Below are positions 2,531-13,187 of a DNA stretch of 13,187 nt, in pieces. Made by a program: the position numbers and the translations under genes. Origin of the DNA: a virus (lineage: Duplodnaviria > Heunggongvirae > Uroviricota > Caudoviricetes). The first letter of the stretch is position 1. Each line of letters opens with the position of its first letter. The notes under the pieces are model-generated. The model ran no database searches, was not told the DNA's origin, and saw only the letters and a program-made list of their open reading frames with translations. Location of the stretch: IMG/VR virus record IMGVR_UViG_2778261447_000008, positions 1 through 13,187 of that record. One strand, written 5' to 3'.

Positions 2531-3706
2531 ATGGATATAACTTGTTTAGAATGTGGCAATGTTCTTGACGACCCAACTGTAGCTTGCGATAAATGCGGTG
2601 CCACGCCTCATGTTGTAGTGCTGGGCAAACAATCGTACTTTCCTATTGGTGCTGTAACAGCAAATCTTGAAAAAAATGATTCAAGAGCATTTGATTATCG
2701 ATTAGGTGAAGTTTGGGATCTAAAAAATGAAGTCACATCTGAATTCATAACCAGAATTGAGAAAAAATTTAGCCGAAAAAACAAATTTCATAACTTCCTA
2801 GACTCAGATCACAACCCTTCATCCATTCCTACGATCCTAAAAAAATACATTAATAAAAATAATGAATTCATTGATTTATCTAGAGCTATAATAGAGAAGC
2901 TTAAACATAATGCTAATAACGAATCGAGAGTTGCCCAACTTCAGGGGGGGAGCGTTGTTTTCATCCACTATAAGTCTACCGAACCAGAGGATTTGGGGAA
3001 ACTTCTAATCGTAATGGTTGATAAACAAAGCGCCTATGACTTTGATTCGGATAAGTTGACCCCAACAAGATTAAATCCAATTAATACCGATGCCTTACGG
3101 CAGGCTGCGATGTTCGATTTAACTTTATTCGAAGCCAGTTATCCAGAAAACAAGGGTGACTCATATGTACATTTCTTGCAAGGTAAATCTAAAAGCGATT
3201 TTTTCAAAGACTCATTAGGTTGCCGACATGATTCGGACAATAAAAGAAGCATTCAGCAATTATTCAGTGCTATAGATATTTTTGCTAGTAAAAACTCACT
3301 CGGTCGTGTACTGCGTGATACTATTGACAATGAAGTTAAATCCTTACTGGAAAAAAAATCAAAAGATAAATACGGAAATAAGTCCGTTAAGATAGAGGAT
3401 ATTTCAAAAATAATTGACTCATGCCTGACTGATTCACACAAATGTAAGGGAACGTTTGTCGATTTTGTTAATCTTAATGGTTTCCAGATTGACCCTCAAT
3501 TTGAACCAACTCCTAAAGCAGCTGAAAGCGCGCTTACAATTGAAGTGGCAGATAACGACAATAATTTTAAGTTGAAAATAATGCGTGGAGCTATTGGAGA
3601 CGAAAAGTCAAATAAGCCTGTAATTCTCACTGACAACAAATGCGAAATTGTGATAAAATTGAGTCAGGCAAATTATGATGAACTCAAAAGATATAGAGAC
3701 AGCTAA
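2531..3706 (+). CDS. zinc-ribbon protein with NdpA/YejK (NA37)-like nucleoid-associated-protein region; first gene of AT-rich cargo cassette
   Basis: 391 aa. N-terminal Cys4 motif (CLECGN...CDKCG). The central region carries motifs I recognise from E. coli YejK/NdpA (GGSVVFIHY vs GGFVLFCHY; YVHFLQGKSKSDFFKDSLG vs [22 protein letters not shown]), recalled from memory. Very AT-rich. Confidence 0.6.
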   Translation: MDITCLECGNVLDDPTVACDKCGATPHVVVLGKQSYFPIGAVTANLEKNDSRAFDYRLGEVWDLKNEVTSEFITRIEKKFSRKNKFHNFLDSDHNPSSIPTILKKYINKNNEFIDLSRAIIEKLKHNANNESRVAQLQGGSVVFIHYKSTEPEDLGKLLIVMVDKQSAYDFDSDKLTPTRLNPINTDALRQAAMFDLTLFEASYPENKGDSYVHFLQGKSKSDFFKDSLGCRHDSDNKRSIQQLFSAIDIFASKNSLGRVLRDTIDNEVKSLLEKKSKDKYGNKSVKIEDISKIIDSCLTDSHKCKGTFVDFVNLNGFQIDPQFEPTPKAAESALTIEVADNDNNFKLKIMRGAIGDEKSNKPVILTDNKCEIVIKLSQANYDELKRYRDS

Positions 3707-3708
3707 TA

Positions 3709-4269
3709 ATGACAATTGCTGATGACTTATCAAGATTAGCGCAGATTATTAACGGAGCCTCAAGCAGAGTTGAGGGCTACTACACTGTCATAAGTCTTGA
3801 AGAAAGCATTGTTATTGTAAATAGTTCTGAAATAATTAGACTGTTACAATCTATAGGTTATAAAAAGGCAACAACCTGCATCGAAAATAATGAAATTTGG
3901 CTAGATCGCCAAGCTTCATCTTGGGATGACGCTATAATTTATGAGAATGTTGAGTCTTTTTGGTCTAGAGTAAACACCCAAAACGCTCTTCCGAAAAATT
4001 ATATCATCGGAACGCCGTTAATACTCCCTACTTCTAAGAATGAAAGCATCGAAAAAATCCATATTTTCTTTATGTGGAAAGATATCCTTTCATTAATTGC
4101 TGATCATCATAACAGTGACTGCTCTGTCTTATTTTTCACCAATGAAGACAAAAGTTATACAGTCGAACTCACGCATTTTTTACAATATAGCGAGATTAAT
4201 CGCTTATCGAACTCGTCTCTTAAATATGAAATTATAAAGGAGCTTCTCGACACAATAAAAAATCAATGA
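3709..4269 (+). CDS. hypothetical protein; second gene of cargo cassette
   Basis: 186 aa. The ATG overlaps the tandem stop codons of the upstream gene (taaTAATG), indicating translational coupling. AT-rich; no recognisable family. Confidence 0.55.
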   Translation: MTIADDLSRLAQIINGASSRVEGYYTVISLEESIVIVNSSEIIRLLQSIGYKKATTCIENNEIWLDRQASSWDDAIIYENVESFWSRVNTQNALPKNYIIGTPLILPTSKNESIEKIHIFFMWKDILSLIADHHNSDCSVLFFTNEDKSYTVELTHFLQYSEINRLSNSSLKYEIIKELLDTIKNQ

Positions 4270-4354
4270 TTTACACAAAAGCGAGCGCAAACTCGTTATA
4301 CGCTCAGCCATAAACGAAGTATTTAAAGCAAATGGTACGTTCAATTTCTTTGAC

Positions 4355-4924
4355 TTGCTTAACTCTACTGAACTCGTCAGGAAAAAATATGATGAACTAT
4401 ATGAGATTTACACAAAGAGGTTTTCTGTAAATAAAATTCTTAACGAACTCGATGAGAAAAATCTTGAGTTCACGAGTAAAATTAACGAATTCATATCATC
4501 TAATCAGACAAAAGCATTGACTATTCCCGGTGCATTAATAGCAGCTGGTGGCTTAGTGAAGGCTAATGAAACAACCGAAGCAATATTGATTATCGCAGGA
4601 CTTTGGATGATAAAAAAAGTCAATTACATTTCTATTGAGATATTCAATGAAACATTCGACAACTTACGTTCTCGAGTGGAGTCCGCTTTCGATAAGTATT
4701 TAAAGTTTGAAGAAAATAAAGAAATCAAAGATAATGCAGATAGTATTAAGAGTAGCATTACAGGTTTGATTGATAAAGCTAAAAAAAGGATGAGAACTGT
4801 TAAATATCTCGCATCAGCCATGTTTTATGGAGGCCTTATTTACGTTGGATATAAACAGTTCCCAGTCTTTTTTGAAAAATCGGCAGTAAATCTATTTTAT
4901 TTTTTATGCCATACTATAAGCTAA
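4355..4924 (+). CDS. small predicted membrane protein (two hydrophobic helices); third gene of cargo cassette; start codon uncertain
   Basis: 189-codon frame with hydrophobic segments ALTIPGALIAAGGLV...ILIIAGLWMI and YLASAMFYGGLIYVGY. The track start is TTG with no Shine-Dalgarno and there is no in-frame ATG before residue 84. A strong AGGA-N6-ATG at 4379-4391 is in another frame. The 3' end overlaps the Q 3' end by 21 bp. Confidence 0.45.
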   Translation: MLNSTELVRKKYDELYEIYTKRFSVNKILNELDEKNLEFTSKINEFISSNQTKALTIPGALIAAGGLVKANETTEAILIIAGLWMIKKVNYISIEIFNETFDNLRSRVESAFDKYLKFEENKEIKDNADSIKSSITGLIDKAKKRMRTVKYLASAMFYGGLIYVGYKQFPVFFEKSAVNLFYFLCHTIS

Positions 4925-5275
4925 CATTGCTAAACAGCCGTCAACAAACCCCATTGCAGTTTGCAGTTCCTTCCTAATTGTGCCATCAGAGCATTTTCTC
5001 TTCTTCGCAATAGTGCGTAATGAGATACCGATAACAAAGTGGGCGATGATGAGCTCATATTCCTCTGGTTTATACCTTCTCAACCGAGCCACACAACTGT
5101 CTATCATGATGCCTTCGTCATCATCACACTGAATCCGTGACTTTTTGCCATGAGGTAAAAGTCCCTTGAAACCAGCCGCTATCGGCTGCCAGTCCACTCC
5201 GCTATTGTCTGAAGCAGCCCAAGCTCCCCAACGATCCATTACTTCATACATATCACGCATCAACTTTCTCCACAA
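4904..5275 (-). CDS. Q: late-gene antiterminator Q (QuuD / phage-82-type)
   Basis: 123 aa with the motifs RWGAWAA, IAAGFKGL, KSRIQCDDD, C.ARL and CSDG.I.K.LQ that I recall from E. coli QuuD-type Q proteins. Last gene of the minus-strand early operon, upstream of the lysis genes. Confidence 0.8.
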   Translation of the reverse strand: MWRKLMRDMYEVMDRWGAWAASDNSGVDWQPIAAGFKGLLPHGKKSRIQCDDDEGIMIDSCVARLRRYKPEEYELIIAHFVIGISLRTIAKKRKCSDGTIRKELQTAMGFVDGCLAMLAYSMA

Positions 5276-8960: not shown

Positions 8961-9898
8961 CCCCTGAATCCTGCAGGGATCTGGCTGTAGTCCACGTTGT
9001 CGTAACTGGCTTTGAAGTACGGGTCTTCGCGTTTTTCTGTGTACGTGCTGACGGACGGCGATAAGCGCAGGGAAAGCTCATCCCATTTTTCCCGCAACTT
9101 CGACGGGCTGAGCACGTTACGGCACCAGAACGGATCGCGGCTGACGCGGCTGTACATCTCGCAGATTTGTTTGTGAGTACGACCATCCTGCACACACATC
9201 AGGCGAATTTCGTTTGCCCAGGCTGTCCAGTTAGGTTCTTTGGGACGAACCACCTCGCCGTCACATTCGGCGGCCTGCTCGTACAGGGCGATGATTTTTT
9301 TCCAGAGCCACTGTGCGCAGGTCAAATCATCCTGCGTTCCCCACTGGCGATTTTTAGGGCTGAATACAACCGCATCAGGATAGCGAGTTAAAAAATCCTG
9401 TTCAGCCTTCTGCGTGTCCGGTTGCGAAGCGTCCGGACAAGAAGGTTTTTTATCTGACGGATCATGTTTTGATTTTACTGACGGATCCCCGCCAGATTCT
9501 GACGGGTGAAAACCCGCTTTTTTGCCAGATTTCGACGCATCAAATTTTGACGGGTCAGATTTTGATGCGTCAGATTTTGACGGGTCAGAATCTGACAGTT
9601 GAGAAAATGCCGCTGCCTGAAGCTTCGCAACGTTAAGCTGATAAACATTCGACGCATTGCGGTTACCCTGGCGACGCGCCTTACGCGTTAACCAGCCTTC
9701 TGCTTCCAGCCGTGCGATAGCCGTTCTGACGGTACTCATCCCCGCGCCAATCTGGCGGGCAATGGTTTCAATTGATGGCCAGCACACACCTTCGTCATTA
9801 CTGAAATCAGCCAGGCGGGCCATAATTGCCACGCTGGATAACTTCATGCCTGACGCAGCGCAACCATCCCATACATAGCCGGTTAATTTAGTGCTCAT
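8957..9898 (-). CDS. replication initiation protein (O-like) with N-terminal helix-turn-helix and an iteron-encoded linker
   Basis: 313 aa. The N-terminus (SIETIARQIGAGMSTVRTAIARLEAEGWLTRK) is a winged-helix typical of phage replication initiators. A low-complexity SDPSKSDASKSD linker is encoded by tandem DNA iterons, as in lambda O. Confidence 0.7.
   Translation of the reverse strand: MSTKLTGYVWDGCAASGMKLSSVAIMARLADFSNDEGVCWPSIETIARQIGAGMSTVRTAIARLEAEGWLTRKARRQGNRNASNVYQLNVAKLQAAAFSQLSDSDPSKSDASKSDPSKFDASKSGKKAGFHPSESGGDPSVKSKHDPSDKKPSCPDASQPDTQKAEQDFLTRYPDAVVFSPKNRQWGTQDDLTCAQWLWKKIIALYEQAAECDGEVVRPKEPNWTAWANEIRLMCVQDGRTHKQICEMYSRVSRDPFWCRNVLSPSKLREKWDELSLRLSPSVSTYTEKREDPYFKASYDNVDYSQIPAGFRG
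9493..9600. repeat. replication-origin iterons (tandem ~15-bp repeats, consensus CAGATTTTGACGGGT) inside the O-like gene
   Basis: Seven head-to-tail copies read directly: cagattctgacgggt, cagatttcgacgcat, caaattttgacgggt, cagattttgatgcgt, cagattttgacgggt, cagaatctgacagtt, plus tgacgga-type degenerate copies at 9448-9484. Confidence 0.65.
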
Positions 9899-9907
9899 GA
9901 CCGACCT

Positions 9908-10246
9908 CTATTTCTCTGAATTTACGACGAAACTGTTCGAGCGGGCTGAAGCACTCATGCTCATAGCCTTCGCGGAGGTAGATAACCCGTTGTGTTTCCG
10001 GCTCCCAACGAATGACTCTGACGGGTACTCCGTAGTGATCTTTGAACCAGCGGTTAACTTGTCGCAAAGGACTGTCTCCTTCTGCCGGTTGAAATCACCC
10101 ACAGCCCACTCTGCAAAGCTGTGGGTTACAATTTCCCTGTCACCTGGTACATTCACTGCATAGCAATATTCCACCTTCGCTTTTCCACCCGGTACAGGAA
10201 GCGCAATCAGTTGCGAGCGACGGTAGTGTGTTGTTAAACTGTTCAT
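9908..10246 (-). CDS. hypothetical protein, translationally coupled between the CII-like and O-like genes
   Basis: 112 aa. Its ATG overlaps the upstream stop as ATGA (10246..10243) and its stop lies 10 nt before the O-like start. No family recognised. Confidence 0.5.
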
Positions 10247-10812
10247 GCGTTAGTTTCTCCACAACCAGAAGCAATCGACGCCACGACGCCCGGAGCTGCA
10301 CACTCGCGGGCGTCATTACTTTCTGAAATGCAAAAAATTTTGTAGACCAGTGCTGCATGCTCCTGCAGCTTCGAAATTGAGAGATACAGCTCGTCGTTAA
10401 TTGCTGTCTTCTCATGCGGTTCCACTACACCGTCTTCGATTGCTGAACGAATCTGTTTTGAATAACTGCCGATCTGTTCAATGACTTCCAGCAGACGCTG
10501 GTTAATATCGGCGTTGTCCACATCCTCGACGTCAGGAAGAGACACAAAGACGCCATTTGTAGACTGCGCCACAGCATCAGCAATGAAGTGAGTGCCACCA
10601 GCACGCTGTAAAACCATTGCCCATCCCAGCGGGAAAATCTGATCGCCATCTGCACGAAGGCGGTTGAATAAAGCGTTTTCTGTTACATCGAGCCAGTCAG
10701 CCGCTTCAGCGTAACCACCCGGCAACGCCGCGATAGTTTTTCTGACAGCTTTCACGTACCACTCAGGCTGTTTTTCTATTTTCCAGTGATGCTTACCCAC
10801 GATTAGCCTCAT
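10243..10812 (-). CDS. putative CII-type regulatory protein (family assignment tentative)
   Basis: 189 aa, second gene after cro, in the position of lambda cII. Weak resemblance to CP76-type phage regulatory protein CII (L.N.L motif region). Not lambda CII itself. Confidence 0.45.
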
Positions 10813-10843
10813 CGTTCTGTGGTTAAAAATTGAAAGTGTTCTG

Positions 10844-11044
10844 CTAATCTTTCGGATAGATATCCGGTCTTAAGTCAGATTTCGTAATTGCACCTGACGT
10901 GCATTGCTCAAGTTTTTTAGCCAGCACAAAACTGGCTTTTTTATAGCCATTGAAAACCAGCCGTAAGTAGCCAGGTGTTGAGCCAACTTTTCCGGCCAAC
11001 TCGCCCTGCTGTTCTTTGGTTAAAGAGTCCCAATACGCTTTCAT
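10844..11044 (-). CDS. cro: Cro/YdaS-like helix-turn-helix regulator
   Basis: 66 aa from the ATG at 11044..11042 (MKAYWDSLTKEQQGELAGKVGSTPGYLRLVFNGYKKASFVLAKKLEQ), divergent from cI. The track ORF extends upstream into the operator region, which is implausible. An alternative start is at 11068. Confidence 0.65.
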   Translation of the reverse strand: MKAYWDSLTKEQQGELAGKVGSTPGYLRLVFNGYKKASFVLAKKLEQCTSGAITKSDLRPDIYPKD

Positions 11045-11047
11045 ACG

Positions 11048-11119
11048 ATATGTACCTACGGTGTACATATTACATGATTGAAATGAACCTTCAAGATACT
11101 TGTACCTTAACGGTACAAG
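11048..11119. promoter_or_regulatory. oR-like operator/promoter region between cro and cI
   Basis: Two palindromes: ATATGTAC-N7-GTACATAT (11048-11070) and CTTGTACC-N5-GGTACAAG (11099-11119). Candidate cro promoter on the minus strand: -35 TTGAAG (11094..11089), 16-nt spacer, -10 TAATAT (11072..11067). Confidence 0.55.
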
Positions 11120-11134
11120 GGTTTTAATTTCGTT

Positions 11135-11809
11135 ATGAAAACAATCCATGACATCCGGCGGTCTAACGCCAGAAAACTGAGAGATGGTGTTGGCGGGAAT
11201 TCTTCCTTTGCCACTATGATTGATCGCGAGCCAACCCAGACCAGCAGGTTTATGGGAGATGGTGCTACTAAAAATATCGGTGACAGCATGGCACGACACA
11301 TCGAAAAATGTTTCGACCTGCCTGTCGGATGGCTCGATCAAGAACACCAGACAACGAACATCACAAAAAAACCTGATGTTTCAATCACTAATAAACAAAT
11401 CACATTAGTCCCTGTCATATCATGGGTACAGGCCGGAGCATGGAAAGAAGTTGGATATTCTGAGGTTGATTTGAGCACAGCAGAAACGTATCCCTGCCCT
11501 GTACCCTGTGGGGAAATGACTTATATCTTGCGGGTGATAGGTGATTCAATGATTGATGAGTACCGCCCGGGAGACATGATTTTTGTCGATCCTGAAGTAC
11601 CTGCCTGCCACGGTGACGACGTTATTGCATTGATGCACGATACAGGTGAAACCACCTTCAAAAGGTTGATAGAAGATGGGACACAGCGTTATCTCAAAGC
11701 GTTAAACCCAAACTGGCCTGAGCCTTACATTAAGATCAACGGTAATTGCTCTATAATTGGAACTGTGATTTTCTCAGGAAAACCAAGAAGATACAAAATC
11801 AAAGCCTAA
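11135..11809 (+). CDS. cI: CI-type prophage repressor (helix-turn-helix plus S24 LexA-like peptidase domain)
   Basis: The C-terminal domain closely parallels lambda cI (PVISWVQAG..., GDSM serine motif, TFKRL lysine, ALNPNWPEP vs lambda LNPQYPMIP). The N-terminal DNA-binding domain is divergent, implying a different immunity specificity. Confidence 0.85.
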   Translation: MKTIHDIRRSNARKLRDGVGGNSSFATMIDREPTQTSRFMGDGATKNIGDSMARHIEKCFDLPVGWLDQEHQTTNITKKPDVSITNKQITLVPVISWVQAGAWKEVGYSEVDLSTAETYPCPVPCGEMTYILRVIGDSMIDEYRPGDMIFVDPEVPACHGDDVIALMHDTGETTFKRLIEDGTQRYLKALNPNWPEPYIKINGNCSIIGTVIFSGKPRRYKIKA

Positions 11810-11821
11810 TCAATGTTTATG

Positions 11822-11846
11822 AACCTGCTTCGGCAGGTTTTTTTAT
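11822..11846 (+). terminator. intrinsic terminator downstream of cI
   Basis: Hairpin aacctgc-ttcg-gcaggtt (11822-11839) followed by a run of T (11838-11845), 13 nt after the cI stop. Confidence 0.6.
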
Positions 11847-11848
11847 AC

Positions 11849-11876
11849 TTGACAATGTACCTTTGAGATACATAAT
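11849..11876 (+). promoter_or_regulatory. pL-like strong sigma-70 promoter with overlapping operator
   Basis: Consensus -35 TTGACA (11849-11854), 16-nt spacer, -10 CATAAT (11871-11876). The spacer holds ATGTACCTTTGAGATACAT, which matches the oR palindrome at 14 of 19 positions. Confidence 0.55.
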
Positions 11877-11986
11877 GTACCCAAGAGAAACAACAAACAG
11901 GCAGGACGCCCACGAAGTAGCCGCCTGGGGCATATGAAGTCCAGGATGATTCGTTAGCAACAAAAAAGCGCCCTACAGGACGCTTA

Positions 11987-11998
11987 GCTCTTTAACAA
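11987..11998 (+). promoter_or_regulatory. boxA-like antitermination element (rrn-type)
   Basis: GCTCTTTAACAA matches the rrn boxA core (TGCTCTTTAACAA) at 12 of 12 positions. It sits in the leader about 110 nt downstream of the pL-like promoter, preceded by a small stem-loop (aagcg...cgctt, 11966-11985). Confidence 0.4.
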
Positions 11999-12043
11999 TC
12001 TGGTCCCCATCAACAAGTAACTGATAACTTGAGGAGGTGTGAA

Positions 12044-12250
12044 ATGCACAAAACAGAACCAAAAATCGTCGCGCCCGGATACACAAATGAGGAAATTTAC
12101 GAGTGGATGGCAAAGAAGCTGGCAGCTATAAACCAGCTTCGTGAAGTGCTGTCTTATCGACAGGTAACAATAGACTCCTTAAAAAAACTGGATCAGGAAA
12201 TCACGGTTTTATCACAGGATGTTACTTTAGATATTGTGCAGACAAATTAG
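12044..12250 (+). CDS. small hypothetical protein, first ORF downstream of the pL-like promoter
   Basis: 68 aa from the ATG at 12044, with a strong Shine-Dalgarno GAGGAGG (12031-12037) 6 nt upstream. Not arginine-rich, so not an N-like antiterminator. The track ORF starts 15 nt earlier at a TTG. Confidence 0.55.
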   Translation: MHKTEPKIVAPGYTNEEIYEWMAKKLAAINQLREVLSYRQVTIDSLKKLDQEITVLSQDVTLDIVQTN

Positions 12251-12656
12251 GATCCCATTCATTTTCGTCAAAATCATCAAAGTGATGAATTTGTGATCTC
12301 CAGTCTCGATAATCTAAAAATTTCTGGGCGGTTACGCTTATTTTATCAAGCGTGAGTTCATCCTGAATTGAAAGAAGAAGTTCATCAAATTTCATCTCAT
12401 TAATCTGTTTTGGCATCCAGTGATGCTTCATCAGAATAAGGTGAACCAGAGCTTTTTTCCCATTCAACTGATTATAGGGAGTACCGAATTTCTTCCGGTG
12501 CTCATGTAAGACAAGGTCCAGAAGAGTAAGTAATGTTGCCCTTGATTCAACTTTGCTTATTTCGACTGATGACACTACCCCACTGATTTCAATGCCCCGA
12601 TACTTTCCAACATTTTCACAGTGGGATTTGTACAGCGTATAGATATTACCGGACAT
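12222..12656 (-). CDS. hypothetical protein; AT-rich cargo gene in the immunity region
   Basis: 144-codon ORF with an ATG start, AT-rich. Convergent with the pL-proximal gene, with 29 bp of 3' overlap. No family recognised. Confidence 0.5.
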   Translation of the reverse strand: MSGNIYTLYKSHCENVGKYRGIEISGVVSSVEISKVESRATLLTLLDLVLHEHRKKFGTPYNQLNGKKALVHLILMKHHWMPKQINEMKFDELLLSIQDELTLDKISVTAQKFLDYRDWRSQIHHFDDFDENEWDPNLSAQYLK

Positions 12657-12672
12657 TTCTTTTCCTTTTGCG

Positions 12673-12723
12673 TTGTTGGGGATAACCAGATTAACCGAAT
12701 CCTTGTTGTTGGGGAATAACCAG
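12673..12723. repeat. pair of 17-18-bp direct repeats upstream of the 12222..12656 gene
   Basis: TTGTTGGGGATAACCAG (12673-12689) and TTGTTGGGGAATAACCAG (12706-12723), differing by one inserted A and 33 bp apart start to start. They lie 17-70 bp upstream of the ATG at 12656. Confidence 0.5.
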
Positions 12724-12940
12724 GTCCACCTCGCCTGATGTGGCTAAAAGCAGGCACATAACAGCTAAGTATTTTCAACCAGAGAGAATCCTTAGCGTTG
12801 TGGTGAATGCGGCTCAGCGCACGCGGGTTAAGGTTGAGGCTGACAGTCGACCTTCTGTGGATACCCACCCGTCTGGTGTGCAACCTTCGCCAGGCACCGG
12901 GAGGCACCCGGCACCACAACTTTATGCTGTGTGTAGTCTT

Positions 12941-12987
12941 GACGGTACCAGTTTGTACCCTTGCTTCCGGCTGGTACCGTCCTTTTT
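12941..12987 (+). terminator. strong hairpin with T-tract (candidate intrinsic terminator or structured RNA 3' end), plus-strand sense
   Basis: Perfect 11-bp inverted repeat GACGGTACCAG (12941-12951) / CTGGTACCGTC (12971-12981) with a 19-nt loop, followed by CTTTTT (12982-12987). Confidence 0.4.
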
Positions 12988-13187
12988 ACAAAACAGAGAA
13001 GAGCATCACCGGACGACGGGCTCATAACCCAATCCATCCAGGCGGCAGTCATCGCAGGTGTTCTTCTCTGTTTTGTGGAGAAACTAACCGACCTTGCAGG
13101 GTCGATATGCTGAAGTGGTCAACAAAAACTGGCCACCGAGTTAGAGTTTTTTCCAGTATCGATTTTCCGATTCGTTTGGTGGTAACC

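What the first reader, a model, noticed from the sequence alone, without database searches (positions are those of the whole stretch)
11966..12046. rrn-type boxA in the pL leader without a recognisable N gene
GCTCTTTAACAA matches the ribosomal-operon boxA core exactly and is preceded by a short stem-loop, the rrn order (boxB then boxA) rather than the lambda nut order. The first pL gene (68 aa) is not arginine-rich and does not look like N. This suggests host Nus-factor-dependent antitermination that may not need a phage N protein, or an N-like gene outside the window.
Basis: partly seen in the sequence, partly recalled or inferred. Interest (0 to 1): 0.5.

Follow-up and report, generated by a model that had tools for sequence, protein, structure and literature searches.

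The report
rRNA-style boxA in N-less prophage leader
An SfIV/SfV-like prophage with no N antiterminator carries, just after its early leftward promoter, an exact copy of the ribosomal-RNA boxA signal joined to a long-range RNA helix that brackets a swappable backward-facing gene cassette, which suggests the phage borrows the host's rRNA transcription machinery to read through that cassette.

Summary
GCTCTTTAACAA lies at 11987-11998 (+), about 104 nt after a repressor-controlled pL promoter, and follows a hairpin at 11966-11985. The 68-aa ORF is not arginine-rich.

The hairpin is not a boxB. Its loop varies freely, and on the minus strand it is a canonical intrinsic terminator for the convergent cassette gene.

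The boxA looks functional:
- It is invariant across at least 12 different cassette types, except at the two positions the published consensus GYTCTTTAANA leaves free.
- The same 17-mer follows early host-type promoters in T7, K1E/SP6-like phages and a Rac-like prophage.
- About 20 nt match the E. coli 16S-23S spacer boxA.

As in that spacer, boxA abuts the 5' arm of a long-range helix. The 3' arm lies beyond the cassette (12672-12692), and the two arms co-vary between cassette types.

No N-like protein and no second nut-like site were found in the window or in phage SfIV.

Best reading: N-independent, rrn-type Nus-factor loading that protects pL transcription across antisense, untranslated cassette RNA and helps loop that RNA out. 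All of this is computational. Nus binding, Rho protection and RNase III cleavage are inferred, not shown.

The parts
11135..11809 (+). cI-type repressor gene (LexA-like S24 peptidase)
   Evidence: Pfam PF00717, E 1.5e-26. Annotated as cI in SfIV and SfV.
11821..11840 (+). intrinsic terminator after cI
   Evidence: Annotated as a terminator in SfV and Ayreon.
11849..11876 (+). pL promoter (TTGACA-16-CATAAT) with ATGTACC operator-like repeats
   Evidence: 11 of 12 consensus matches. Annotated as a promoter in phage Ayreon.
11895..11953 (+). conserved structured pL leader RNA; hairpin 11924-11928 / 11941-11945 with 12-nt loop GGCAUAUGAAGU, then GAUGAUUCG
   Evidence: Shared by at least 5 different immunity/promoter types. 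The stem co-varies: 93.9% of cells paired, 23 double-change cells against 4.3 in shuffles, 0 of 500 shuffles as high. Covariance-model hit of 91 bits, one copy per phage.
11956..11985 (-). intrinsic terminator of the convergent cassette gene (stem 11985-11966, U-tract 11965-11956); on the + strand, a weakened hairpin 1 nt upstream of boxA
   Evidence: Loop variable and stem conserved. A minus-strand ORF ends just downstream in 43 of 45 cassette types.
11987..11998 (+). rrn-type boxA GCTCTTTAACAA (consensus GYTCTTTAANA = 11987-11997)
   Evidence: The same 17-mer occurs in T7 and other phage early leaders. About 20 nt match the rrnH spacer boxA.
11997..12017 (+). 5' arm of the long-range helix (AAUCUGGUCCCCAUCAACAAG), beginning at the last two A of boxA
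12044..12250 (+). 68-aa cassette ORF with a GAGGAGG ribosome-binding site; not arginine-rich; no family match
   Evidence: Annotated as a hypothetical protein by PGAP.
12222..12656 (-). 144-aa cassette gene ('ECs1072 family phage-associated protein'), convergent with pL
   Evidence: No Pfam or PADLOC match.
12672..12692 (+). 3' arm R1 of the long-range helix (GUUGUUGGGGAUAACCAGAUU)
   Evidence: duplex -31.2 kcal/mol against -18.2 +/- 3.4 for shuffled arms.
12702..12724 (+). second, direct copy of the 3' arm (R2), an alternative pairing partner (93% complementary to 12004-12017)
12726..12743 (+). small conserved hairpin CCAC...GUGG followed by AAAAGCAGGCA, at the right edge of the conserved block
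   Evidence: CCGC/GCGG variant in L216. It also appears in the folds.
12767..12990 (+). STnc100-like RNA ending in a terminator-like hairpin; the next element in the pL path
   Evidence: Rfam RF02076, 44.7 bits (gathering score 47), E 4e-7. Conserved in SfV, SfII, ST64B and others.

Best explanation
The 12-mer is a working rrn-type boxA in the early leftward (pL) transcript of an N-less SfIV/SfV-like lambdoid prophage.

It is the middle piece of a conserved ~55-nt module at the left edge of a swappable cassette of one or two genes:
1. An A-tract plus hairpin, which terminates the convergent minus-strand cassette gene.
2. BoxA.
3. The 5' arm of a long-range helix. The 3' arm lies on the far side of the cassette.

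Proposed mechanism when pL fires:
- NusB/NusE(S10) bind boxA and, with NusA, NusG and SuhB, form an rrn-like elongation complex without any phage N.
- That complex resists Rho while RNA polymerase crosses roughly 450-900 nt of largely untranslated RNA antisense to the cassette gene.
- By staying tethered to boxA, it keeps the 5' arm close until the 3' arm emerges. The cassette RNA is then looped out in a leader-trailer helix, a likely RNase III substrate, just as the 23S rRNA is bracketed downstream of the spacer boxA.

Shown here: the sequence, its conservation pattern, its strand and promoter context, covariation of the helix, and the absence of N and of a second site.

Inferred: Nus-factor binding, Rho resistance, RNA looping and RNase III cleavage.
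For: BoxA itself:
- Exact boxA matching GYTCTTTAANA.
- In samples anchored only on the leader or the hairpin, the boxA positions stay nearly fixed: two of 18 unique sequences carry one change each at a fixed position. The flanking base and the consensus 'N' position vary freely, and sequence beyond +18 diverges over 12 cassette types.
- The module precedes 45 different downstream contexts and follows several unrelated leaders.
- BoxA+TCTGG is kept in Rac-like prophages, where the upstream hairpin is not a terminator.
- The identical 17-mer lies 63 nt after T7 promoter A3 and in K1E/SP6-like early regions.
- Of 43 other distinct contexts, 23 have a sigma70-like promoter within 150 nt upstream in sense, against 1 in antisense.

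The rrn parallel:
- The rrnH spacer reads GCTCTTTAAAAATCTGGAT. The segment right after that boxA pairs with the 23S-5S spacer.

The phage helix:
- Inverted repeats start at the last AA of boxA in nearly every cassette.
- 76% of cells are paired, against 32-48% when the partner is slid; 18 pairs change on both sides; covariation score 0.207 against 0.134, with 0 of 500 shuffles as high.
- The helix appears in minimum-free-energy folds. The window duplex is -31.2 kcal/mol, about 3.8 sd better than shuffled arms.
- 67 transition mismatches are G.U on the + strand, against 29 on the - strand.
- Unrelated phages place different long arms directly after boxA: scores 32-44, against a shuffle maximum of 26.

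No N:
- No N-like ORF in the SfIV pL operon and N reported absent.
- No second copy of boxA or the leader.

Published background:
- BoxA alone is necessary and sufficient for rrn complex formation (PMC10250234).
- BoxA protects untranslated CRISPR arrays from Rho (PMC7665894).
Against: - There is no experimental evidence of any kind.
- 47 of 124 related leaders (the SfV type) lack the whole module yet share the same downstream operon, so boxA is not essential for pL operon expression as such.
- The module always travels with a minus-strand gene, so the terminator alone would explain its position.
- Inverted repeats pair equally well in the minus-strand mRNA (-29.8 against -31.2 kcal/mol). The G.U asymmetry could reflect faster decay of the left arm rather than selection, and the sequences are not independent.
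- In this window the helix is imperfect (75% and 93% over 20 and 14 nt), and a translated 68-aa ORF fills part of the supposedly untranslated stretch.
- rrn-type complexes are poor at intrinsic terminators (from my knowledge of the literature), and a terminator-like hairpin at about 12946-12990 still lies ahead of yfdP.
- C>G (rut-like) composition in the antisense stretch is only modest.
Confidence: 0.55

Rival explanations
1. The module is only the minus-strand terminator of the cassette gene plus a conserved junction used for homologous cassette exchange. The boxA-like 12-mer and the inverted repeats are passengers, or act at the DNA level as terminal repeats of a mobile cassette, with no role in the pL RNA.
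For: The hairpin is a canonical terminator on the minus strand. A minus-strand ORF ends next to the module in 43 of 45 contexts. SfV-type phages do without the module. Each cassette type carries its own matching arms, as a mobile unit would. AAC flanks both arms in the window, which could be a target duplication (read directly from the sequence).
Against: The variation pattern inside the 12-mer follows the NusB/E consensus. BoxA+TCTGG persists where the hairpin is not a terminator. The same 17-mer sits in sense downstream of strong promoters in T7-like and other phages, 23 of 43 against 1 of 43. About 20 nt are identical to the rrn spacer boxA context. Unrelated arm sequences in other phages keep the same position relative to boxA. 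No cassette was seen in the inverted orientation.
Confidence: 0.17
2. The boxA is functional but repressive, as at suhB. The Nus complex bound about 32 nt upstream of the GAGGAGG ribosome-binding site blocks translation of the 68-aa ORF and so promotes Rho termination, which damps pL expression.
For: BoxA ends 45 nt upstream of the ORF start, inside the 50-nt range used to find suhB-like targets (PMC5725501). The ORF has a strong ribosome-binding site (sequence).
Against: Most cassette types have no + strand ORF behind boxA, yet boxA is conserved in all of them. The rrn-like helix architecture is not explained.
Confidence: 0.08
3. A lambda-type nut site used by a phage N-like protein encoded elsewhere, with the hairpin acting as boxB.
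For: The position in the pL leader and the presence of a hairpin next to boxA.
Against: No arginine-rich ORF in the SfIV pL operon. N reported absent in SfII, SfV and SfIV. The hairpin loop is not conserved (TACA, TATA, CATA, CCGTA, CATC and others). The order is hairpin then boxA. No nutR-like second copy. The module is absent from sister phages with the same operon.
Confidence: 0.04
4. Processive antitermination in this phage group is carried out by the conserved structured leader RNA (11895-11953) acting on RNA polymerase by itself, in the manner of HK022 put. BoxA would be an accessory limited to cassette-bearing variants.
For: The leader lies directly after pL in every immunity type and in SfV-type phages without boxA. 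Its stem co-varies and its loop is conserved. An intrinsic-terminator-like hairpin ahead of yfdP needs some means of readthrough (alignment).
Against: No similarity to HK022 put regions by blastn-short or by the covariance model. Only one copy per genome, whereas HK022 has putL and putR (PMC9378689). One 5-bp hairpin is far simpler than the two-stem put fold.
Confidence: 0.12

Closest known systems
E. coli rrn operon 16S-23S spacer boxA with the 23S leader-trailer (processing) helix
   Same: The boxA core is identical, and about 20 nt match: GCTCTTTAA(A/C)AATCTGGAT. In both, boxA is followed at once by the 5' strand of a long-range helix whose 3' strand lies beyond the enclosed RNA. A hairpin lies upstream of boxA. 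No phage N is needed.
   Different: The enclosed RNA is 450-900 nt antisense to a protein gene, not a 2.9-kb rRNA. The helix has about 14-26 bp. The upstream hairpin doubles as a terminator for the opposite strand. Nus binding and RNase III cleavage are untested here.
Phage lambda nutL / N antitermination
   Same: A boxA in the pL leader of a lambdoid phage, placed between pL and the early leftward genes.
   Different: No N protein. No boxB with a conserved GNRA-like loop. The order is hairpin then boxA. No nutR counterpart. The boxA is the full rrn consensus rather than lambda's weaker CGCTCTTA (lambda sequence from memory).
BoxA upstream of Salmonella and other CRISPR arrays, and the suhB boxA
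   Same: A stand-alone boxA matching GYTCTTTAANA, placed near the start of a transcript. At CRISPR arrays it protects long untranslated RNA from Rho (PMC7665894, PMC5725501).
   Different: Those elements are chromosomal and have no adjoining long-range helix reported. At suhB the effect is repression.
T7 early leader (between promoter A3 and gene 0.3)
   Same: The identical 17-mer GCTCTTTAACAATCTGG, in sense, 63 nt after a strong host-type promoter.
   Different: In T7 it is followed by a local hairpin region before gene 0.3 (the R0.3 RNase III site, from memory) rather than a cassette-spanning helix. It is not annotated in the RefSeq record. T7 is a lytic phage.
HK022 put RNAs
   Same: N-independent antitermination in a lambdoid phage by an element in the nascent early transcript.
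   Different: put acts without host Nus factors through a two-stem RNA that binds the beta' zinc-binding domain, and it occurs as putL and putR. There is no sequence or model similarity here.

Membership tests
rrn-type boxA (NusB/NusE loading site) | Sequence matches the gamma-proteobacterial consensus GYTCTTTAANA | tested here: met
   11987-11997 = GCTCTTTAACA. Relatives vary freely only at the free positions, with single exceptions in 2 of 18 unique sequences.
rrn-type boxA (NusB/NusE loading site) | Lies in the transcribed sense strand, promoter-proximal | tested here: met
   About 104 nt after the pL -10 element. In other phage contexts, 23 of 43 have a sense promoter within 150 nt, against 1 of 43 in antisense.
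rrn-type boxA (NusB/NusE loading site) | Binds NusB/NusE and recruits SuhB, NusA and NusG; confers Rho resistance | not testable with these tools
   Needs ChIP, gel shift or reporter assays.
lambda-type nut site | BoxA followed by a boxB hairpin with a conserved loop bound by an arginine-rich N protein | tested here: not met
   The hairpin precedes boxA and its loop is variable. No arginine-rich-motif ORF in the SfIV pL operon. N reported absent.
lambda-type nut site | A second site (nutR) in the pR operon | tested here: not met
   No boxA or leader copy on the minus strand of the window or in SfIV/SfV loci.
rRNA-like leader-trailer helix | Complementary segments flank the enclosed RNA and are supported by covariation | tested here: met
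   (0 of 500 shuffles as high; slid controls 32-48% paired against 76%). Also.
rRNA-like leader-trailer helix | Cleaved by RNase III | not testable with these tools
   Needs 5'/3' end mapping in wild-type and rnc strains.
Rho-independent (intrinsic) terminator, minus strand | GC-rich stem followed by a U-tract at the 3' end of a gene | tested here: met
   8-bp stem, 5 G-C pairs, then TTTTTGTTGCT. -11.5 kcal/mol. A minus-strand ORF stops 9-220 nt upstream on that strand in 43 of 45 contexts. Termination itself was not measured.
HK022 put RNA | About 70 nt, two-stem RNA, present downstream of both pL and pR | tested here: not met
   No similarity. The leader model gives one hit per phage and none in HK022. 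Features taken from PMC9378689.
STnc100 sRNA (RF02076), neighbouring element | Reaches Rfam's gathering score | tested here: inconclusive
   44.7 bits against a gathering score of 47, E 4e-7, full-length match.

The most novel reading that the evidence does not exclude
Temperate and lytic enterobacterial phages share an rRNA-operon mimic: a host-type boxA fused to the 5' arm of a leader-trailer helix. It recruits the rrn antitermination/chaperone complex so that an early transcript can run Rho-proof through, then loop out and excise, an inserted cassette. In SfV/CPS-53-like and Rac-like prophages, that cassette is a backward-facing moron that is freely exchanged between these two fixed RNA arms. 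This would be a dedicated insulator for cargo genes and a third route to early antitermination in lambdoid phages, alongside N/nut and put.
Probability: 0.35. Interest if true: 0.8.

Novelty: new variant of a known kind. Interest (0 to 1): 0.62.

Why it matters
Lambdoid phages are the textbook case of early antitermination by N/nut, with HK022 put as the one known exception. A large group has no N and no described substitute: SfII, SfIV, SfV, CPS-53-like and Rac-like prophages. Related sequence is present in about 1,100 of 5,426 complete E. coli genomes.

If the boxA works as proposed, these phages use the host's rRNA antitermination complex directly. That would extend BoxA/Nus regulation (rrn, suhB, CRISPR arrays) to prophage early operons.

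It would also explain how a moron or defence-type cassette can sit backwards inside an essential early operon without polarity. And it would offer a compact natural system (boxA plus two short arms around about 0.5 kb) for testing the RNA-looping and RNase III chaperone model of the rrn complex outside the ribosome.

Tried and rejected
- HK022 put homology: blastn-short of the leader and the STnc100 region against the HK022 early region gave only chance words. The leader covariance model found nothing in HK022.
- N-like gene: a scan of every + strand ORF of at least 35 aa in the SfIV pL operon for arginine-rich windows found none among annotated genes.
- nutR-like second site: motif scans and the covariance model over the window, SfV and SfIV found none.
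- Function of the cassette proteins: Pfam and PADLOC gave no hits for the 68-aa and 144-aa proteins or the 171-aa protein of L005.
- K-12 Rac prophage: it has no boxA in the ydaF-sieB region.
- Origin of the window: an exact search for the prophage/IS junction in representative genomes found nothing.
- The SfV genome paper is not in the library. The library holds no paper linking boxA to SfV-type phages.
- The minimum-free-energy fold of the whole leader and the RNAalifold consensus were uninformative on their own. The leader hairpin was recovered only by naming the structure.
- Rut-like C>G composition of the antisense stretch is weak and was not used as evidence.

Full report
**Context.** The window is the early regulatory region of an SfIV/SfV-like (CPS-53/YfdP-type) lambdoid prophage. 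It is 98.7% identical to Shigella phage SfIV over 10803-13113. Pfam identifies cI (S24 peptidase, 11135-11809), cro (10844-11044, -), a CP76-type cII (10243-10812, -) and a Q antiterminator (4904-5275, -). cI is followed by a terminator (11821-11840) and then a near-consensus promoter, TTGACA-16-CATAAT (11849-11876), with ATGTACC operator-like repeats. This is the lambda layout, with pL downstream of cI on the same strand.

**Check of the observation.** GCTCTTTAACAA is at 11987-11998 (+) and is the only exact copy in the window. It matches the published gamma-proteobacterial consensus GYTCTTTAANA (PMC5725501). The preceding stem-loop is real (11966-11985). The 68-aa ORF runs 12044-12250, has a strong ribosome-binding site and is not arginine-rich.

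**The hairpin is a terminator for the other strand.**
- On the + strand the stem has a C.A mismatch (-7.5 kcal/mol). On the - strand that position is a G.U pair, which gives an 8-bp stem (-11.5 kcal/mol) followed by UUUUUUGUUGCU, and the scan lists it as terminator-like.
- Across relatives the loop is free (TACA, TATA, CATA, CCGTA, CATC and others) while the stem is kept.
- In 43 of 45 distinct downstream contexts, a 145-255-aa minus-strand ORF ends 9-220 nt from boxA.
- It is therefore not a boxB for an N-like protein.

**The element belongs to a swappable cassette.**
- SfV shares the window up to 11955 and again from 12726, but not in between.
- Of 124 IMG/VR contigs anchored only on the conserved leader, 74 carry hairpin plus boxA, 47 carry the SfV-type cassette without it, and 3 carry something else.
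- The hairpin-boxA module precedes at least 45 different cassette sequences. It follows several unrelated leaders and immunity types.

**Is the boxA more than a passenger?**
- In the sample anchored on the leader or the hairpin alone, boxA positions are invariant apart from single changes in 2 of 18 unique sequences. The preceding base (A/C/T) and the consensus N position (C/A) vary freely. Conservation runs on through AATCTGG and then collapses.
- BoxA+TCTGGATATCC is retained in Rac-like prophages, where the upstream hairpin (GCCGGA...TCCGGC) has no U-tract on either strand.
- The identical 17-mer GCTCTTTAACAATCTGG lies 63 nt after T7 promoter A3. It also occurs in K1E/SP6-like early regions and ahead of a phage tRNA gene.
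- Among 43 further distinct contexts, 23 have a sigma70-like promoter within 150 nt upstream in sense, against 1 in antisense.
- The strand, position and variation pattern are those expected of a NusB/NusE site.

**The rrn parallel goes beyond the 12-mer.** In E. coli rrnH the leader boxA reads GCTCTTTAACAAtttatcag, whereas the 16S-23S spacer boxA reads GCTCTTTAAAAAtctggatcaagc. The phage module (GCTCTTTAA[C/A]AATCTGGAT) matches the spacer version over about 20 nt. In rrnH, the segment directly after the spacer boxA is predicted to pair with the 23S-5S spacer, that is, the outer part of the 23S leader-trailer helix.

The phage has the same architecture:
- An inverted repeat starts at the last two A of boxA, and its partner lies 440-900 nt downstream, beyond the cassette.
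- Arms differ between cassette types but match within each type: GATATCC, GATGACT and AATCAGTTTGGTGA versions.
- On an alignment of 32 distinct arm pairs, 76% of cells pair, against 32-48% when the partner is slid. Eighteen pairs change on both sides. The covariation score is 0.207 against 0.134 in shuffles, with 0 of 500 as high.
- The helix closes the cassette in the minimum-free-energy and centroid folds of L005, and less cleanly in the window.
- In the window the arms are 11997-12017 and 12672-12692, with a second copy at 12702-12724. The duplex is -31.2 kcal/mol, against -18.2 +/- 3.4 for shuffled arms, and it is the best partner anywhere in the next kilobase.
- Transition mismatches are G.U on the + strand 67 times and on the - strand 29 times. 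This is suggestive only, because the sequences are related.
- In unrelated phages (L264, L301, L280, L292), quite different arms of 18-33 nt also begin right after boxA. Their scores are 32-44, against a shuffle maximum of 26.
- SfV-type cassettes, which lack boxA, show no such repeat.

**No N and no second site.** No ORF in the SfIV pL operon has an N-like arginine-rich stretch. The SfIV paper reports no N in SfII, SfV or SfIV (PMC3851460). Neither boxA nor the conserved leader recurs on the pR side.

**Mechanism proposed.** BoxA is necessary and sufficient for assembly of the rrn complex (PMC10250234). BoxA protects untranslated CRISPR arrays from Rho (PMC7665894). [quoted passage not shown]

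By analogy, the pL transcript loads the host Nus complex at 11987-11998 and then crosses the cassette, which is RNA antisense to the 144-aa gene and largely untranslated, without Rho termination. The complex holds the 5' arm until the 3' arm emerges, and the cassette RNA is looped out and probably cut. The minus-strand terminator stops cassette transcription from running antisense into pL and cI. Its conserved + strand mismatch may keep it from stopping pL transcription; that last point is my inference. Every biochemical step here is inferred.

**Weak points.**
- SfV-type phages manage without the module.
- The module's position is also explained by the terminator alone.
- The helix could act in the minus-strand mRNA, or at the DNA level as terminal repeats of a mobile cassette.
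- The window's own helix is imperfect, and the cassette contains a translated + strand ORF.
- A terminator-like hairpin at the end of the STnc100-like RNA still lies ahead of yfdP, and rrn-type complexes are not known to defeat intrinsic terminators efficiently (from my knowledge of the literature).
- The conserved, co-varying leader hairpin (11895-11953) has no assigned role and could be the real, or an additional, antitermination element.

**Verdict.** I found no description of this arrangement in the library searched. It is a new variant of a known kind, BoxA/Nus regulation, with an unexpected rrn-like leader-trailer design.

Noticed in passing
window 11895-11953 (+): Conserved structured RNA directly after pL, shared by at least 5 immunity types and present even in SfV-type phages without boxA. 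It has a 5-bp stem that co-varies (CCUGG/CCAGG, CCCGG/CCGGG, CCGGU/ACCGG, CCACC/GGUGG, CCCCA/UGGGG), a 12-nt conserved loop GGCRUAYGAAKN, then GAUGAUUCG. There is one copy per phage and no match in HK022 or Rac. Function unknown.
   Followed up: partly
window 12767-12990 (+): Near-threshold full-length match to the Rfam sRNA STnc100 (44.7 bits, gathering score 47). It ends in the hairpin GGTACCAG...CTGGTACC plus GTCCTTTTT. It lies in the pL path between the cassette and yfdP and is conserved in SfV, SfII, ST64B and phiES15. It may be made from the pL transcript (5' end from cleavage of the long-range helix, 3' end at its own terminator), but this was not tested. SfIV ORFs 34 and 35 and a PGAP 'frameshifted hypothetical protein' are annotated over it.
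   Followed up: partly
window 13114-13187: The window leaves SfIV/SfV homology at 13113, exactly at the yfdP start region, and enters the end of an IS3-family element (ISEc52/IS911-like; up to 24 copies per E. coli genome, also on plasmids). In this genome the pL operon is therefore cut off by an insertion sequence.
   Followed up: partly
window 12672-12760 (+): Conserved right-hand block after the cassette: two direct copies of the 3' arm (12672-12692, 12702-12724), a small hairpin at 12726-12743 (CCAC/GUGG, CCGC/GCGG in one relative), then AAAAGCAGGCA. It is kept even in phages whose DNA further downstream is unrelated. On the minus strand this is the 5' UTR, and possibly the promoter region, of the cassette gene.
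   Followed up: partly
L264 3207-3790; L301; L280; L292 1682-1955 (K1E/SP6-like early region); T7 813-829: The same boxA 17-mer occurs in unrelated phages just after early host-type promoters. In several of them it is followed at once by a different long inverted repeat (18-33 nt arms) that encloses 250-700 nt. This suggests a general boxA-plus-helix device in phage early transcripts.
   Followed up: partly
window 12044-12656: The cassette cargo is a convergent gene pair: a 68-aa ORF on + and a 144-aa 'ECs1072 family' gene on -, with 3' ends overlapping by 29 nt. Neither has a Pfam or PADLOC match. This exact cassette is in 408 of 5,426 complete E. coli genomes, and the slot holds dozens of alternative minus-strand genes, so it behaves like a hotspot for accessory or defence-type cargo.
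   Followed up: partly
window 10243-10812 (-): Pfam finds a CP76-type cII regulator (E 1.6e-13), although the SfIV genome paper states that SfII, SfV and SfIV have no cII.
   Followed up: no
window 2531-4924 (+): Three + strand ORFs lie beyond Q, opposite in orientation to the late operon. The first (391 aa) matches the 37-kDa nucleoid-associated protein family NA37 (E 1.4e-23). The other two have no Pfam match. This looks like another cargo insertion.
   Followed up: no
window 9523-9597 (-): A long imperfect palindrome, picked up as a chance miRNA-family match (mir-5880, 30.7 bits against a gathering score of 97), lies inside the replication-gene region. It may be an origin-like or iteron structure.
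   Followed up: no
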